From Pseudomonadota bacterium (lineage in GTDB: Bacteria; Pseudomonadota; Gammaproteobacteria; Burkholderiales; JACQAP01): a DNA stretch of 64,000 bases. Of this stretch, positions 60,368-63,137 are shown piece after piece. Both the position numbers and the translations under genes were made by a program. Under the pieces are notes generated by a model. It ran no database searches. It was not told the DNA's origin and saw only the letters and a list, made by a program, of their open reading frames with translations. Each line of letters starts with the position of its first letter. Position 1 is the stretch's first letter. The stretch lies in the NCBI GenBank assembly GCA_038040175.1, contig JBBPIT010000008.1, positions 2,184 through 66,183 on the forward strand, written 5' to 3'.

Positions 60368-61675
60368 ATGGGGGCAAAAGATCAAATCGAACCCATCGAA
60401 AAAGCCGGCGTCGATGAACTGCGCGCGCTGCAGTTGAAGCGGCTGCGCTGGAGCCTGCAGCACGCGTATGAGAAGGTGCCGCACTACCGCAATGCCTTCG
60501 ACGCCGCCGGCATTCACCCCGGCGATCTGAAGGATCTGGCGGACCTGGCAAAGATTCCGTTCACCACCAAGGCCGACTTGCGCGCCAACTACCCTTTCGG
60601 GATGTTCGCCGTGCCGATGGACGATATCGTGCGCGTCCATGCCTCCAGCGGCACCACCGGTAAGCCCACCGTGGTCGGTTACACCCGGGAAGACATCGAC
60701 ACCTGGGCGACGGTGATGGCGCGCTCGCTGCGGGCTGCAGGCGGCAAATCCAGCGACATCGTCCACGTCGCCTACGGCTACGGCCTGTTCACCGGCGGGC
60801 TGGGCGCGCATTACGGCGCCGAGGCGCTGGGCGCCACCGTGATCCCGGTGAGCGGTGGCATGACCGAGCGGCAAGTGCAGCTGATCTGCGACTTCAAGCC
60901 CGACATCATCATGTGCACGCCATCCTACCTGCTGGTGATCGCGGATGAATTCGTGCGCCAGGGTCTCGACCCGGCGCTGTGCTCCCTGCGAGTGGGGATG
61001 TTCGGTGCCGAGCCGTGGACCGAGAGCATGCGTGCCGAGCTCGAAAAGCGCTTCGGGCTGGTGGCACTCGACATCTACGGGCTTTCGGAAGTCATCGGCC
61101 CGGGGGTGGCGCAGGAATGCATCGACTCGCGCGACGGGCTCACCGTCTGGGAGGACCATTTCTACCCCGAGATCGTCGATCCGCAGAGCGGAGCAGTGCT
61201 GTCCGATGGCCAGAGCGGCGAACTGGTCCTGACCTCGCTCACCAAGGTCGGGATGCCGGTGATCCGCTACCGCACGCGCGACCTCACGCGGCTGCTGCCC
61301 GGCACCGCGCGCAGCATGCGCCGGATGGCGCGCGTCACCGGGCGCAGCGACGACATGCTGATCATCCGCGGCGTCAATGTTTTTCCCTCGCAAATCGAAG
61401 AACTGCTGTTGAAACAAACGGAGCTCGCGCCCCACTATGTGCTGGAAGTGCGTCGCGATGGGCACCTCGACGATCTGGACGTTTTGGTCGAACGCCGGGC
61501 CGGGACCGCCGCACCATTGTCGGTTGCGACAATCACCGCCATCGAGCAGGATATGGAGCGGCAGATCAAGGGCTACATCGGGGTGACCACCCGGGTCCGT
61601 GTGGTCGAACCGGGCACGGTCCAGCGCTCGCAGGGCAAGGCGGTGCGCGTCATCGACAAGCGGCCCAGGAATTGA
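60368..61675 (+). CDS. phenylacetate-CoA ligase family protein (PaaK-like)
   Basis: 435 aa with ...YRNAFDAAGIHPGDLKDLADLAKIPFTTKADLRANYPFGMFAVP...VHASSGTTGKPTVVGYT...MLIIRGVNVFPSQIE. Confidence 0.85.
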   Translation: MGAKDQIEPIEKAGVDELRALQLKRLRWSLQHAYEKVPHYRNAFDAAGIHPGDLKDLADLAKIPFTTKADLRANYPFGMFAVPMDDIVRVHASSGTTGKPTVVGYTREDIDTWATVMARSLRAAGGKSSDIVHVAYGYGLFTGGLGAHYGAEALGATVIPVSGGMTERQVQLICDFKPDIIMCTPSYLLVIADEFVRQGLDPALCSLRVGMFGAEPWTESMRAELEKRFGLVALDIYGLSEVIGPGVAQECIDSRDGLTVWEDHFYPEIVDPQSGAVLSDGQSGELVLTSLTKVGMPVIRYRTRDLTRLLPGTARSMRRMARVTGRSDDMLIIRGVNVFPSQIEELLLKQTELAPHYVLEVRRDGHLDDLDVLVERRAGTAAPLSVATITAIEQDMERQIKGYIGVTTRVRVVEPGTVQRSQGKAVRVIDKRPRN

Positions 61676-61721
61676 GAGTCGAGAGATATTGAAAGCCGCA
61701 GGGGATCGAAAGGAGCAGGAT

Positions 61722-63137
61722 TTGGCGGCACCAGTCACTAAAGCACCCGTTCAGGAATCCGAGAGCCTGCAGCGCGCCGGCATAGGCAACGATGCAGTCG
61801 CAGCTTGGCACGCCGCGGCACCGCGCGACACCGGCGATTTCGCCGGCGACTGCGCCCGCTACTCACGATTCTGGGAGTCGAGTGCCGCTTTGCTTGCGCG
61901 CCTTCCTGCAAAGCCGGCGCGCGACGCGCAGCAGGCGGAGGCAGCCGAGCGGATCAAACAGGTGGCGCGCGAGGCGCGCACCCTATTCCTTCGCGCCCAC
62001 GTCGAGGCGGTCTACGACCGGCTCACACACAACCGGTCGCGCTTCATCCGCGTCGAGCAACTCATTTATGACGCCGCGGCGCTGGTGCCGGGGCTGACGC
62101 CCACGCGCGCGCAGGTCGCGGCCGAATCCGCGTGCCTTCAGCGCGACAAGGAGGGGCTGGAGATCGACCACGGCATCTTCGTCTCCGCCACGCTGGCAAA
62201 TCCGGGCACAGGACGCCACCTCTGCCACGCGATGCTGCTTCCCCACGCCGGGACGGCCGAGCGGCTAGCGGAGCTGGAAAGGAAAGGGCGCGTGGATCTC
62301 GGTGCGGCCGAAGTCTTCCGCAAGGGCCGGGCCTCACACGTGATCGAGAAGAATCCCCGCCACCTGAATGCCGAGGACGCGACCACGCTCGACGCCGCCG
62401 AGATCGCCGTCGATCTGGCGATCCTCGATCCGCACACGCAGATCGGCGTGCTGCGCGGCGATTATGTGCAGGGCGGCAAGTACCAGGGAAAGCGCGTGCT
62501 CGGCAGCGGCATCAACCTGACCCACCTTTACTACGGCAAGGTGCCGTTCATCTGGTATCTGCAGCGCGATCTGGGGATCGTGAACAAGCTCTATCGCGGA
62601 CTGGCCCACCCCGAGATGATGCCGGACGACGTCAACGGTCAGACCATCGAGATGCCCTGGATCGCGGTGGTCGAGGGATTCGCCATCGGCGGGCATTGCC
62701 AGTACCTGCTGACCATGGACTACGTGCTGGCCGCGCAGGACGCGTTCATGAGCCTGCCGGCACGCAAGGAGGGCATCATCCCCGGCGCGGCGAACCTGCG
62801 GCTGCCGCGCTTCACCGGCGACCGCATCGCGCGGCAGGCGATCATGTACCAGCGCCGGCTCGACTGCGACAGCCCCGAGGGCCGGCTGATCTGCGACGAA
62901 GTGGTTGCGCCGGCGGACATGGACGGCGCGATCGAGCGCGTGGTCGAAAATCTCAACGGTACCGGCGTGGTGAGCGCCGCGTCGAACCGGCGCGCCTTCC
63001 GCGTCGCCCAGGAACCGCTCGACCTGTTTCGCAACTATTTCGCCGTGTACGCACTCGAGCAGGCCTATTGCCACTTCAGCCCCGCGTTGATTTCCAACCT
63101 CGAGCAGCACTGGAACGCCAAGAACCGCAAGCTCTGA
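61722..63137 (+). CDS. DpgC-like crotonase-fold acyl-CoA dioxygenase ((3,5-dihydroxyphenyl)acetyl-CoA 1,2-dioxygenase family)
   Basis: ...[23 protein letters not shown]...[69 protein letters not shown]...[17 protein letters not shown] closely parallels DpgC as I recall it. I chose the TTG start at 61722 because it follows AAGGAG and avoids overlap with the ligase gene. The track ORF starts at 61599. Confidence 0.7.
   Translation: [471 protein letters not shown]

What the first reader, a model, noticed from the sequence alone, without database searches (positions are those of the whole stretch)
60368..63137. PaaK-like aryl-acetate CoA ligase directly coupled to a DpgC-like cofactor-independent dioxygenase in a proteobacterial chromosome
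Seen: the 435-aa ligase has the phenylacetate-CoA ligase motifs. The next ORF begins 47 nt downstream (TTG after AAGGAG) and matches, block for block, the crotonase-fold enzyme DpgC as I remember it ([19 protein letters not shown], DEVV.P..+D.AIER). Established: in glycopeptide antibiotic pathways, DpgC oxidises 3,5-dihydroxyphenylacetyl-CoA to the aryl-glyoxylate with O2 and no cofactor. In Thauera/Azoarcus-type anaerobic phenylacetate catabolism, the equivalent alpha-oxidation of phenylacetyl-CoA to phenylglyoxylate needs a molybdenum enzyme. Inference: this pair could be an oxygen-dependent aryl-acetate to aryl-acetyl-CoA to aryl-glyoxylate module, a catabolic use of DpgC chemistry. None of the other Dpg (polyketide) genes is present. 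An FAD oxidoreductase lies upstream (59134..60240) and a molybdopterin hydroxylase is convergent downstream (63383..).
Basis: partly seen in the sequence, partly recalled or inferred. Interest (0 to 1): 0.6.

Follow-up and report, generated by a model that had tools for sequence, protein, structure and literature searches.

The report
PaaK plus DpgC-like dioxygenase operon
A phenylacetate-CoA ligase gene is coupled to a full-length relative of the cofactor-free dioxygenase DpgC in a soil betaproteobacterium that lacks the usual phenylacetate ring-epoxidase pathway, which points to an undescribed oxygen-dependent side-chain route from phenylacetate to phenylglyoxylate and on to benzoyl-CoA.

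Summary
60368..61675 encodes a PaaK equivalog (709 bits, cut-off 646). After a 46-nt spacer and an AAGGAG site, 61722..63137 encodes a 471-aa full-length DpgC homologue (325 bits to PDB 2NP9; TM 0.79; ordinary crotonases score under 40 bits). It keeps E189, I235, R254, G296, Q299 and A319. It is not a DpgC orthologue: it scores 410 bits against a cut-off of 530 and lies in a sister clade to the one holding DpgC and the streptogramin PglA-like protein. No type III PKS or NRPS is present.

The pair is conserved in Beta- and Alphaproteobacteria. PaaK lies directly upstream in at least 47 of 80 loci, and these PaaKs form one group in the tree. This 99%-complete genome has one PaaK and no PaaA. It does have a benzoylformate decarboxylase, a benzoate-CoA ligase and BoxB.

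In 201 genomes of the order, DpgC-like genes occur in 11. None of the 11 has PaaA. All 11 have BoxB and a benzoylformate-decarboxylase-like gene.

Best reading: phenylacetate is converted to phenylacetyl-CoA, then with O2 to phenylglyoxylate, then to benzaldehyde, benzoate and the box pathway. No paper in the searched library describes this. Nothing has been tested biochemically, and the substrate is inferred.

The parts
59134..60240 (+). FAD-dependent oxidoreductase of the DAO / L-2-hydroxyglutarate-dehydrogenase-like type, 368 aa. It is a possible third member of the unit and lies 127 nt upstream of paaK.
   Evidence: PF01266 scores 217.8 bits. NF008726 LhgO scores 218 bits, below its cut-off of 299. 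It scores 464 bits to PDB 3DME, a protein of unknown function. It lies directly upstream on the same strand in 20 betaproteobacterial loci and in a second family, G149. It is absent from the alphaproteobacterial loci.
60368..61675 (+). paaK, phenylacetate-CoA ligase, 435 aa.
   Evidence: TIGR02155 scores 709.4 bits against a cut-off of 646.3. It scores 631 bits to PaaK1, PDB 2Y27. It is the only PaaK over the cut-off in the genome.
61711..61716 (+). Shine-Dalgarno-like AAGGAG, 5 nt before the TTG start of the second gene.
   Evidence: Read directly from the sequence.
61722..63137 (+). DpgC-like protein, a predicted cofactor-independent arylacetyl-CoA dioxygenase, 471 aa. It has an N-terminal helical domain plus a crotonase core.
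   Evidence: NF042432 scores 409.7 bits, below its cut-off of 530, over profile positions 4-404 of 412. It scores 325 bits to PDB 2NP9. Foldseek gives TM 0.79 to DpgC. The residues E218, I264, R282, G324, Q327 and A347 match DpgC E189, I235, R254, G296, Q299 and A319.
63176..63204 (+). Intrinsic-terminator-like hairpin with 8 G-C pairs and a T-rich tail, 39 nt after the stop of the DpgC-like gene.
   Evidence: Found. No comparable site lies between paaK and the DpgC-like gene.
63383..64000 (-). 3' part of the large subunit of a three-subunit molybdenum hydroxylase of the aldehyde-oxidoreductase type. It is a convergent neighbour, and its membership in the unit is not shown.
   Evidence: The full gene encodes 767 aa and scores 610.6 bits on NF041018 (cut-off 790). 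The 2Fe-2S and FAD subunits are encoded just beyond the window. This synteny is kept in 15 betaproteobacterial loci only.

Best explanation
The two genes form an operon for oxygen-dependent alpha-oxidation of an arylacetate, most likely phenylacetate itself.

Proposed steps:
1. PaaK makes phenylacetyl-CoA from phenylacetate, ATP and CoA.
2. The DpgC-like enzyme binds the thioester in a crotonase oxyanion hole. It forms the C-alpha enolate, adds O2 without metal or cofactor, and releases phenylglyoxylate (benzoylformate) and free CoA. This is the chemistry DpgC performs on 3,5-dihydroxyphenylacetyl-CoA.
3. In this organism phenylglyoxylate would then be decarboxylated to benzaldehyde by a benzoylformate decarboxylase. 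The benzaldehyde would be oxidised to benzoate, activated by benzoate-CoA ligase, and degraded by the aerobic box pathway.

The route would stand in for the missing PaaABCDE ring-epoxidase pathway.

Shown here: the gene identities, their homology, the conserved residues, the conserved linkage and the gene-content patterns. Inferred: every catalytic step, the substrate, and the link to the distant downstream genes.
For: 1. Identity of the two proteins.
- PaaK is over the equivalog cut-off.
- The second protein is a full-length DpgC homologue by sequence and by fold.
- E189, I235, R254, G296, Q299 and A319 are kept. They are near-invariant in 65 family members.
- The PDB mutant entries R254K, A319C and V425T show that these are the positions experimenters probed.

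2. Operon structure. The spacer is 46 nt with an SD site. The only strong terminator lies after the second gene.

3. Linkage.
- PaaK lies directly upstream on the same strand in at least 47 of 80 related loci from Burkholderiales and Xanthobacteraceae genomes. More such loci are cut by contig ends.
- PaaK is the only real gene cluster (shadow ORFs aside) shared by at least 60 of the 80 loci, in both classes.
- All 47 adjacent PaaKs sit on one side of one branch, apart from the PaaKs of PaaA-bearing genomes.

4. Substrate.
- The adjacent PaaKs differ from canonical PaaKs at only 3 group-specific positions.
- A DpgC-family protein sits in the PglA position of a Streptomyces phenylglycine operon. 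There the proposed substrate is phenylacetyl-CoA (PMC7089894). That protein keeps the same residues.

5. Pathway logic in this genome (98.9% complete).
- One PaaK and no PaaA.
- A benzoylformate decarboxylase equivalog at 778 bits, cut-off 493.
- A benzoate-CoA ligase at 830 bits and BoxB at 753 bits.

6. Survey of 201 genomes of the order.
- DpgC-like genes occur in 11 genomes. PaaA occurs in 34, with no overlap.
- Among BoxB-positive genomes, PaaA is present in 28 of 37 without the DpgC-like gene and in 0 of 11 with it (p = 7e-6).
- BoxB is present in 11 of 11. A benzoylformate-decarboxylase-like gene is present in 11 of 11, against 23 of 190 others.
- Every PaaK-bearing genome has PaaA, or the DpgC-like gene, or neither, but never both.
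Against: - No biochemical or expression data exist for any member of this clade.
- The protein lies in a sister clade (SH-aLRT 100) to the one holding DpgC and the PglA-like protein. It is 45% identical to DpgC.
- It carries clade-specific changes beside the oxyanion glycine: GGHCQ in place of GGGAQ/GGGMQ, R in place of A320, and a one-residue deletion before R254.
- From memory of Chen et al. 2001 and Fielding et al. 2007, neither of which could be opened here: DpgC itself handles phenylacetyl-CoA about 500-fold worse than its own substrate, and the phenol groups matter for catalysis.
- The 11 positive genomes represent only 4 genera, and the Fisher tests are not corrected for phylogeny.
- The true benzoylformate decarboxylase equivalog is present only in this genome among the 11. 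The others have only a paralogue scoring 405-442 bits, below the cut-off.
- The downstream genes are unlinked and sit on other contigs.
- In one family (f12) the DpgC-like gene is not next to PaaK. It sits beside an ABC importer, with a PaaK 31 kb away.
- The AlphaFold model is poor over residues 344-391, which include active-site loops. No pocket analysis was possible.
Confidence: 0.6

Rival explanations
1. The chemistry is the same but the substrate differs. The pair would act on a ring-substituted or heteroaryl acetate, such as 3-hydroxy-, 4-hydroxy-, 3,4- or 3,5-dihydroxyphenylacetate from polyphenol breakdown, or indole-3-acetate. The product would be the matching arylglyoxylate.
For: - R254 and E189 are kept. 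In DpgC they contact a phenolic hydroxyl (from memory of Fielding et al. 2007).
- DpgC needs the phenol groups for good turnover (from memory).
- B. cenocepacia PaaK1 is the closest solved relative. It has a relaxed aryl pocket (PMC4498308).
- The clade carries its own residues next to the active-site glycines.
- In alphaproteobacterial loci a VdcC-like hydroxyarylic-acid decarboxylase lies nearby in 16 loci.
Against: - The ligase passes the PaaK equivalog cut-off. It differs from the PaaKs of paaABCDE genomes at only 3 group-specific positions.
- R254, E189 and Q299 are invariant across the whole superfamily, including the PglA-like protein whose proposed substrate has no hydroxyl. They therefore do not mark specificity.
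- Exclusion with PaaA and co-occurrence with the benzoyl-CoA box pathway fit unsubstituted phenylacetate best.
Confidence: 0.2
2. The DpgC-like protein is not an oxygenase here. It would use the crotonase fold for a thioesterase, hydratase, isomerase or decarboxylase reaction on phenylacetyl-CoA or another acyl-CoA. One possibility is a phenylacetyl-CoA thioesterase that controls the phenylacetyl-CoA pool.
For: - One source names its relatives 'thioesterase DpgC', and NCBI names them 'enoyl-CoA hydratase/isomerase family protein'.
- The crotonase superfamily is catalytically diverse.
- The clade is uncharacterised.
- Other members sit in unrelated contexts: an acyl-AMP ligase with an acyl-CoA dehydrogenase in Tistrella, and a fusion to a second crotonase domain in P0146.
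Against: - The protein shows full-length colinearity with DpgC, including the N-terminal domain that ordinary crotonases lack.
- The DpgC-specific residues, including A319 of the O2 pocket, are conserved.
- A ligase coupled to a plain thioesterase would be a futile cycle.
Confidence: 0.1
3. The pair is biosynthetic. It would make phenylglyoxylate as a precursor of a phenylglycine-type amino acid or another secondary metabolite, as PglA and DpgC do in actinomycetes.
For: All characterised or proposed members of the family, DpgC and PglA, are biosynthetic (PMC7089894).
Against: - No aminotransferase, NRPS, MbtH or thioesterase gene lies next to the pair.
- The genome has no type III PKS.
- The neighbours are housekeeping genes kept by lineage synteny.
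- The gene-content pattern follows catabolic pathways: box and benzoylformate-decarboxylase-like genes are present and PaaA is absent.
Confidence: 0.05

Closest known systems
DpgC, (3,5-dihydroxyphenyl)acetyl-CoA 1,2-dioxygenase of glycopeptide antibiotic producers (PDB 2NP9, 2PG8, 4YLH, 5KAG/H/J)
   Same: - It shares the two-domain architecture and fold (TM 0.79).
- It is 45% identical over about 400 residues.
- E189, I235, R254, G296, Q299 and A319 are kept.
- The predicted reaction type is the same: an arylacetyl-CoA plus O2 gives an arylglyoxylate plus CoA, with no cofactor.
   Different: - It scores below the curated equivalog cut-off: 409.7 bits against 530.
- It lies in a sister clade.
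- The host is proteobacterial.
- The substrate would be supplied by a CoA ligase rather than by the DpgA polyketide synthase.
- No DpgA/B/D, aminotransferase or NRPS is present.
- The active-site neighbours differ: GGHCQ against GGGAQ, and R against A320.
- The inferred role is catabolic, not biosynthetic.
PglA, the 'Phg dioxygenase' of the pristinamycin/virginiamycin L-phenylglycine operon pglA-E
   Same: It is a DpgC-family protein proposed to oxidise phenylacetyl-CoA itself towards phenylglyoxylate (PMC7089894). The homologue in a Streptomyces pgl-type operon is 42% identical to the window protein over 93% of its length. It keeps the same catalytic residues.
   Different: - PglA groups with DpgC in the actinobacterial clade.
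- Its phenylacetyl-CoA comes from phenylpyruvate through a PglB/C dehydrogenase complex, not from a ligase.
- It is followed by a thioesterase and an aminotransferase, and it is embedded between NRPS genes.
- Its activity is inferred from genetics in the paper read here.
PadBCD, phenylacetyl-CoA:acceptor oxidoreductase of anaerobic phenylacetate catabolism in Thauera and Aromatoleum
   Same: It gives the same net conversion of phenylacetyl-CoA to phenylglyoxylate, after a PaaK-type ligase (established knowledge; the pathway is mentioned in PMC9765128).
   Different: It is an unrelated, membrane-bound molybdenum enzyme that uses water as the oxygen source and works without O2. It has no sequence relationship to the protein found here.
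PaaABCDE/PaaG/PaaZ hybrid aerobic phenylacetate pathway
   Same: It starts with the same ligase, PaaK, and the same thioester.
   Different: It attacks the ring by epoxidation rather than the side chain. It is absent from this genome and from all 11 genomes of the order that carry the DpgC-like gene. A 2026 survey notes PaaK copies without PaaABCDE ('other configurations') but does not mention DpgC (PMC13186573).
Lower mandelate pathway (benzoylformate decarboxylase MdlC, benzaldehyde dehydrogenase)
   Same: It would be the sink for phenylglyoxylate. An MdlC equivalog is present in this genome (778 bits).
   Different: No mandelate racemase or dehydrogenase gene lies beside it. It is on another contig, and it is missing from the other DpgC-like-bearing genomes, which have only a lower-scoring paralogue.

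Membership tests
DpgC equivalog (NCBIfam NF042432) | Whole-protein score at or above the curated cut-off of 530 bits | tested here: not met
   The window protein scores 409.7 bits. All 11 homologues in the order score 405-440 bits. The PglA-like protein scores 495.9 bits.
DpgC superfamily (cofactor-independent crotonase-fold dioxygenases) | Full-length two-domain architecture: an N-terminal helical domain plus a crotonase core | tested here: met
   Profile positions 4-404 of 412 are matched. Query residues 52-452 align with DpgC 23-421. The top 19 Foldseek hits are all DpgC, with TMt 0.79 and E 7e-29. The next hits are crotonases at E 1e-6.
DpgC superfamily (cofactor-independent crotonase-fold dioxygenases) | Oxyanion-hole and catalytic or substrate-contact residues (I235, G296, R254, E189, Q299) and O2-pocket residue A319 | tested here: met
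   The window has I264, G324, R282, E218, Q327 and A347. The roles of these residues are taken from memory of Widboom 2007 and Fielding 2007 and from the PDB mutant titles R254K and A319C. V425 could not be aligned, because the DpgC sequence available here ended at residue 421.
DpgC superfamily (cofactor-independent crotonase-fold dioxygenases) | O2-dependent, metal- and cofactor-free conversion of an arylacetyl-CoA to an arylglyoxylate | not testable with these tools
   This needs an enzyme assay.
DpgC orthologues | Placement in the clade of characterised DpgC | tested here: not met
   DpgC and the PglA-like protein fall in a 26-row clade. The window protein falls in the other, 43-row clade. 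The split has SH-aLRT 100.
DpgC orthologues | Gene context with dpgA (type III PKS), dpgB/D, an aminotransferase and an NRPS | tested here: not met
   The genome has no type III PKS domain. The neighbours are an FAD oxidoreductase, PaaK and a molybdenum hydroxylase.
PaaK, phenylacetate-CoA ligase (TIGR02155) | Score over the equivalog cut-off, and the AMP-binding plus AMP-binding_C_2 domains | tested here: met
   It scores 709.4 bits against a cut-off of 646.3. PF00501 and PF14535 are both present. It scores 631 bits to PaaK1, PDB 2Y27.
PaaK, phenylacetate-CoA ligase (TIGR02155) | Association with paaABCDE and the rest of the paa cluster | tested here: not met
   The genome has no PaaA over the cut-off; the best hit is 92 bits.
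Ordinary enoyl-CoA hydratase/isomerase (PF00378) | A protein of about 260 aa that matches the whole ECH_1 profile and has hydratases as its best relatives | tested here: not met
   Only residues 307-417 match profile positions 85-196, at 45 bits. The best crotonase in PDB scores 38.6 bits, against 325 bits for DpgC.
PglA-type phenylglycine operon | Context with PglB/C (E1 alpha and beta), PglD hydrolase, PglE aminotransferase and an NRPS | tested here: not met
   This context is seen in Streptomyces locus L110. It is absent from the window.

The most novel reading that the evidence does not exclude
Several soil lineages of Beta- and Alphaproteobacteria degrade phenylacetate aerobically by a third, undescribed route. 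PaaK would be followed by a cofactor-free DpgC-family dioxygenase that oxidises the side chain of phenylacetyl-CoA to phenylglyoxylate. Decarboxylation to benzaldehyde, oxidation to benzoate and the box pathway would follow. This route would replace PaaABCDE and would be the oxygen-dependent counterpart of the anaerobic molybdenum enzyme PadBCD. The upstream L-2-hydroxyglutarate-dehydrogenase-like flavoprotein might feed mandelate or a related 2-substituted phenylacetate into the same phenylglyoxylate node.
Probability: 0.4. Interest if true: 0.8.

Novelty: new variant of a known kind. Interest (0 to 1): 0.68.

Why it matters
Two routes of phenylacetate catabolism are known: the aerobic PaaABCDE ring-epoxide pathway, and the anaerobic PadBCD side-chain oxidation. 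A ligase coupled to a cofactor-free dioxygenase would be a third route, and it needs only two genes.

It would give DpgC chemistry a catabolic role. That chemistry is so far known from antibiotic biosynthesis in actinomycetes.

It would also assign a function to a large clade now annotated as 'enoyl-CoA hydratase/isomerase family protein'. Every one of the 8000 candidates scored in the metagenome protein search matched at E <= 1e-10. At least 240 loci in the GTDB species-representative collection encode a relative.

It would explain 'orphan' PaaK genes in genomes without paaABCDE.

A two-enzyme, cofactor-free route from arylacetates to arylglyoxylates is also of practical interest for making phenylglyoxylate and phenylglycine precursors.

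Tried and rejected
The start is the TTG at 61722.
- The primary DpgC papers could not be opened by PubMed or PMC id: Widboom 2007, Fielding 2007 and Chen 2001. Residue roles and the 500-fold preference against phenylacetyl-CoA therefore rest on memory and on PDB entry titles.
- Literature searches for 'DpgC-like', for DpgC with phenylacetyl-CoA, and for phenylacetyl-CoA, phenylglyoxylate, dioxygenase and crotonase found no description of the pair.
- Neighbours other than PaaK were examined as possible partners:
  - The FAD oxidoreductase, DUF3025, GGDEF and molybdenum hydroxylase genes are kept only in betaproteobacterial loci. They are best read as lineage synteny.
  - The UbiD-like, MarR, hot-dog-like and TctC genes appear only in subsets of alphaproteobacterial loci.
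- Co-occurrence of the true benzoylformate decarboxylase equivalog with the DpgC-like gene did not hold. Only this genome among the 11 has it. Only the lower-scoring paralogue co-occurs.
- The two long representatives, P0146 and P0206, were tested as possible PaaK fusions. They are not. One is a crotonase plus DpgC-like fusion, and the other looks like a frameshifted call.
- The PaaK plus ECH_1 fusion reported for B. cenocepacia H111 (PMC13186573) could not be checked.
- The AlphaFold model has mean pLDDT 70.5 and is below 50 over residues 344-391. It was used only for the fold search, not for pocket analysis.

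
Full report
**What is in the sequence**

The + strand carries a 435-aa ORF at 60368..61675. It is followed by a 46-nt spacer that contains AAGGAG at 61711-61716. 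A second ORF starts at the TTG at 61722 and ends at 63137, encoding 471 aa. A hairpin with 8 G-C pairs and a T-rich tail follows at 63176-63204. No comparable terminator lies between the two genes. I read the two genes as one transcription unit. This is inferred from the sequence.

**Identity of the two proteins**

- The first protein is a phenylacetate-CoA ligase by every sequence test available.
  - It scores 709.4 bits on TIGR02155, over the cut-off of 646.3.
  - It scores 631 bits to B. cenocepacia PaaK1, PDB 2Y27.
- The second protein matches the DpgC model NF042432 over profile positions 4-404 of 412, at 409.7 bits and E 1.7e-122. This is below the curated cut-off of 530.
  - It scores 325 bits to the DpgC crystal-structure sequences. 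The best ordinary crotonase scores 38.6 bits.
  - Pfam sees only a partial ECH_1 match at residues 307-417.
- An AlphaFold2 model has mean pLDDT 70.5 and pTM 0.75, and is poor over residues 344-391. It still finds DpgC chains as its top 19 PDB matches, at TM 0.79 and E 7e-29. The next hits are crotonases at E 1e-6.

**Active-site residues**

I used the DpgC numbering recovered from the alignment. The window protein keeps E189, I235, R254, G296, Q299 and A319, as E218, I264, R282, G324, Q327 and A347. The roles assigned to these residues come from memory of Widboom et al. 2007 and Fielding et al. 2007. I could not open those papers. The PDB entries for the R254K, A319C and V425T mutants confirm that these positions were the ones probed.

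These residues are near-invariant in 65 full-length family members. They are also kept in a Streptomyces PglA-like protein. They therefore mark the family's chemistry, not its substrate specificity.

The window's clade has its own signature next to the oxyanion glycine:
- GGHCQ in place of GGGAQ (DpgC) or GGGMQ (PglA-like);
- R in place of A320;
- a one-residue deletion before R254.

**Place in the family**

A search of 1.84 billion representative proteins found 289 clusters at E <= 1e-30. A tree of the full-length representatives splits into two clades with SH-aLRT 100.
- One clade of 26 rows holds S. toyocaensis DpgC and the PglA-like protein.
- The other clade of 43 rows holds the window protein, the alphaproteobacterial homologues and a shorter Tistrella protein.

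The PglA-like protein sits in a textbook pgl operon: NRPS, DpgC-family protein, E1 alpha, E1 beta, alpha/beta hydrolase, MbtH, aminotransferase, NRPS. PglA is described as the dioxygenase that oxidises phenylacetyl-CoA on the way to phenylglyoxylate (PMC7089894). The family therefore already has a proposed phenylacetyl-CoA oxidiser. The window protein is a member of an uncharacterised sister clade, not an orthologue of either known enzyme.

**Conserved linkage**

Among the 80 best related loci from species-representative genomes, PaaK lies directly upstream on the same strand in at least 47. These loci come from soil Burkholderiales and Xanthobacteraceae/Bradyrhizobium-like genomes. Several more such loci are cut by contig ends. 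In about 10 alphaproteobacterial loci a more distant PaaK-like gene is divergent, 1-3 kb away.

Clustering all ORFs of these loci shows that PaaK is the only real gene cluster (shadow ORFs on other frames aside) shared by at least 60 of the 80 loci, in both classes. The FAD oxidoreductase, DUF3025, GGDEF and molybdenum hydroxylase neighbours are kept only in the betaproteobacterial loci. This includes a second family, G149.

In a PaaK tree, all 47 DpgC-like-adjacent PaaKs fall on one side of a single branch (support 92). They are separate from the PaaKs of PaaA-bearing genomes. Even so, they differ from those canonical PaaKs at only three group-specific positions. This argues for phenylacetate or a very close analogue as the substrate.

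**Genome-level logic**

The window's genome is 98.9% complete. Its content is:
- one PaaK over the cut-off;
- no PaaA; the best hit is 92 bits against a cut-off of 280;
- no type III PKS;
- a stand-alone benzoylformate decarboxylase equivalog at 778.5 bits, cut-off 493, plus a lower-scoring paralogue at 432 bits;
- a benzoate-CoA ligase at 830 bits;
- BoxB at 753 bits.

I also surveyed 201 genomes drawn evenly from the same order.
- The DpgC-like gene occurs in 11 genomes from 4 genera, and none scores over the DpgC cut-off.
- PaaA occurs in 34 genomes, with no overlap. Sister genera within two families carry PaaA instead.
- BoxB occurs in 48 genomes, including all 11.
- Among BoxB-positive genomes, PaaA is present in 28 of 37 that lack the DpgC-like gene and in 0 of 11 that have it (Fisher p = 7e-6).
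- A benzoylformate-decarboxylase-like gene is present in 11 of 11, against 23 of 190 others.
- PaaK occurs in 56 genomes: 34 with PaaA, 11 with the DpgC-like gene, 11 with neither, and none with both.

These statistics are not corrected for phylogeny and rest on four genera. I treat them as suggestive.

**Mechanism proposed**

1. PaaK makes phenylacetyl-CoA from phenylacetate.
2. The DpgC-like enzyme forms the thioester enolate in its oxyanion hole, adds O2 without a cofactor, and releases phenylglyoxylate and CoA.
3. A thiamine-diphosphate decarboxylase gives benzaldehyde.
4. An aldehyde oxidoreductase or dehydrogenase gives benzoate.
5. Benzoate-CoA ligase and the box enzymes complete the degradation.

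The convergent three-subunit molybdenum enzyme next door is of the aldehyde-oxidoreductase type. It is a candidate for step 4, but nothing ties it to the pair beyond lineage synteny. Every catalytic step is inferred.

The upstream flavoprotein resembles L-2-hydroxyglutarate dehydrogenases and a structure of unknown function, PDB 3DME. It could feed a 2-hydroxy or 2-amino phenylacetate into the same keto acid. This is speculation. Unchecked notes from other windows of this scan describe the same trio.

**Weak points**

- No member of the clade has been assayed.
- From memory, DpgC prefers its dihydroxylated substrate strongly. A hydroxylated or heteroaryl acetate therefore remains a live alternative.
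- The true benzoylformate decarboxylase is not shared by the other carriers.
- In family f12 the DpgC-like gene sits beside a Liv-type ABC importer and a sigma-54 activator, with PaaK 31 kb away.
- Other subclades have other contexts.

**Novelty**

Searches of the held library found no paper that describes a DpgC-like enzyme coupled to PaaK, or an aerobic phenylacetyl-CoA dioxygenase in catabolism. A 2026 survey of the phenylacetate pathway records PaaK copies without PaaABCDE but does not mention DpgC. I rate this a new variant of a known kind. The fold and the chemistry are known. The clade, the coupling to a ligase and the catabolic role are new.

Noticed in passing
own genome, contig C4:50571-52274 (-), outside the window: A stand-alone benzoylformate decarboxylase equivalog scores 778.5 bits on NF005485 (cut-off 493). 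It is flanked by a CBS-domain gene and hrpA, with no mandelate racemase or dehydrogenase nearby. A second paralogue at C53:3319-5001 scores 432 bits. That paralogue type is present in all 11 genomes of the order that carry the DpgC-like gene.
   Followed up: partly
own genome, contig C67:8425-9081 (-), outside the window: A 236-aa ORF has a weak PaaA-like diiron match (92 bits, cut-off 280). The genome search read through one TGA stop in that stretch. It is not a PaaA, and its function was not examined.
   Followed up: no
window 63383-64000 and beyond (L003 167-4149): A three-subunit molybdenum hydroxylase of the aldehyde-oxidoreductase type has its large subunit on the - strand. The 2Fe-2S and FAD subunits are transcribed divergently on the + strand. 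All three score below the glyceraldehyde dehydrogenase cut-offs.
   Followed up: partly
L003 4291-6374 (just past the window's end): Two co-oriented genes lie on the - strand. One is a three-Cys-motif partner protein TcmP (110 bits, cut-off 53). The other has a weak match to radical SAM mobile pair protein A (96.8 bits, cut-off 355).
   Followed up: no
L109 (Tistrella mobilis plasmid pTM3) 5102-10140: A shorter, 391-aa DpgC-like protein lacks part of the N-terminal domain. It closes a co-oriented run of a methyltransferase, a fatty-acyl-AMP-ligase-like protein and an acyl-CoA dehydrogenase. This is a different, probably biosynthetic, context for the same clade.
   Followed up: no
L145 (G011:C3) 9045-17906: In family f12 the DpgC-like gene follows a Liv-type ABC importer (binding protein, ATPase, permease) and a PAS/sigma-54 activator on the same strand. 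PaaK lies 31 kb away.
   Followed up: partly
L058 12543-14805 and 15 other alphaproteobacterial loci: A MarR regulator and a UbiD-family decarboxylase lie 1-3 kb downstream of the DpgC-like gene. The decarboxylase is VdcC-like at 183 bits, far below the cut-off.
   Followed up: no
protein P0146 (representative library): A 669-aa protein fuses an ordinary crotonase domain (about residues 1-230) to a DpgC-like protein (residues 275-669).
   Followed up: no
window 59134-60240: The FAD oxidoreductase scores 464 bits to PDB 3DME, which is deposited only as 'conserved exported protein'. A solved structure of unknown function therefore belongs to this gene neighbourhood.
   Followed up: no
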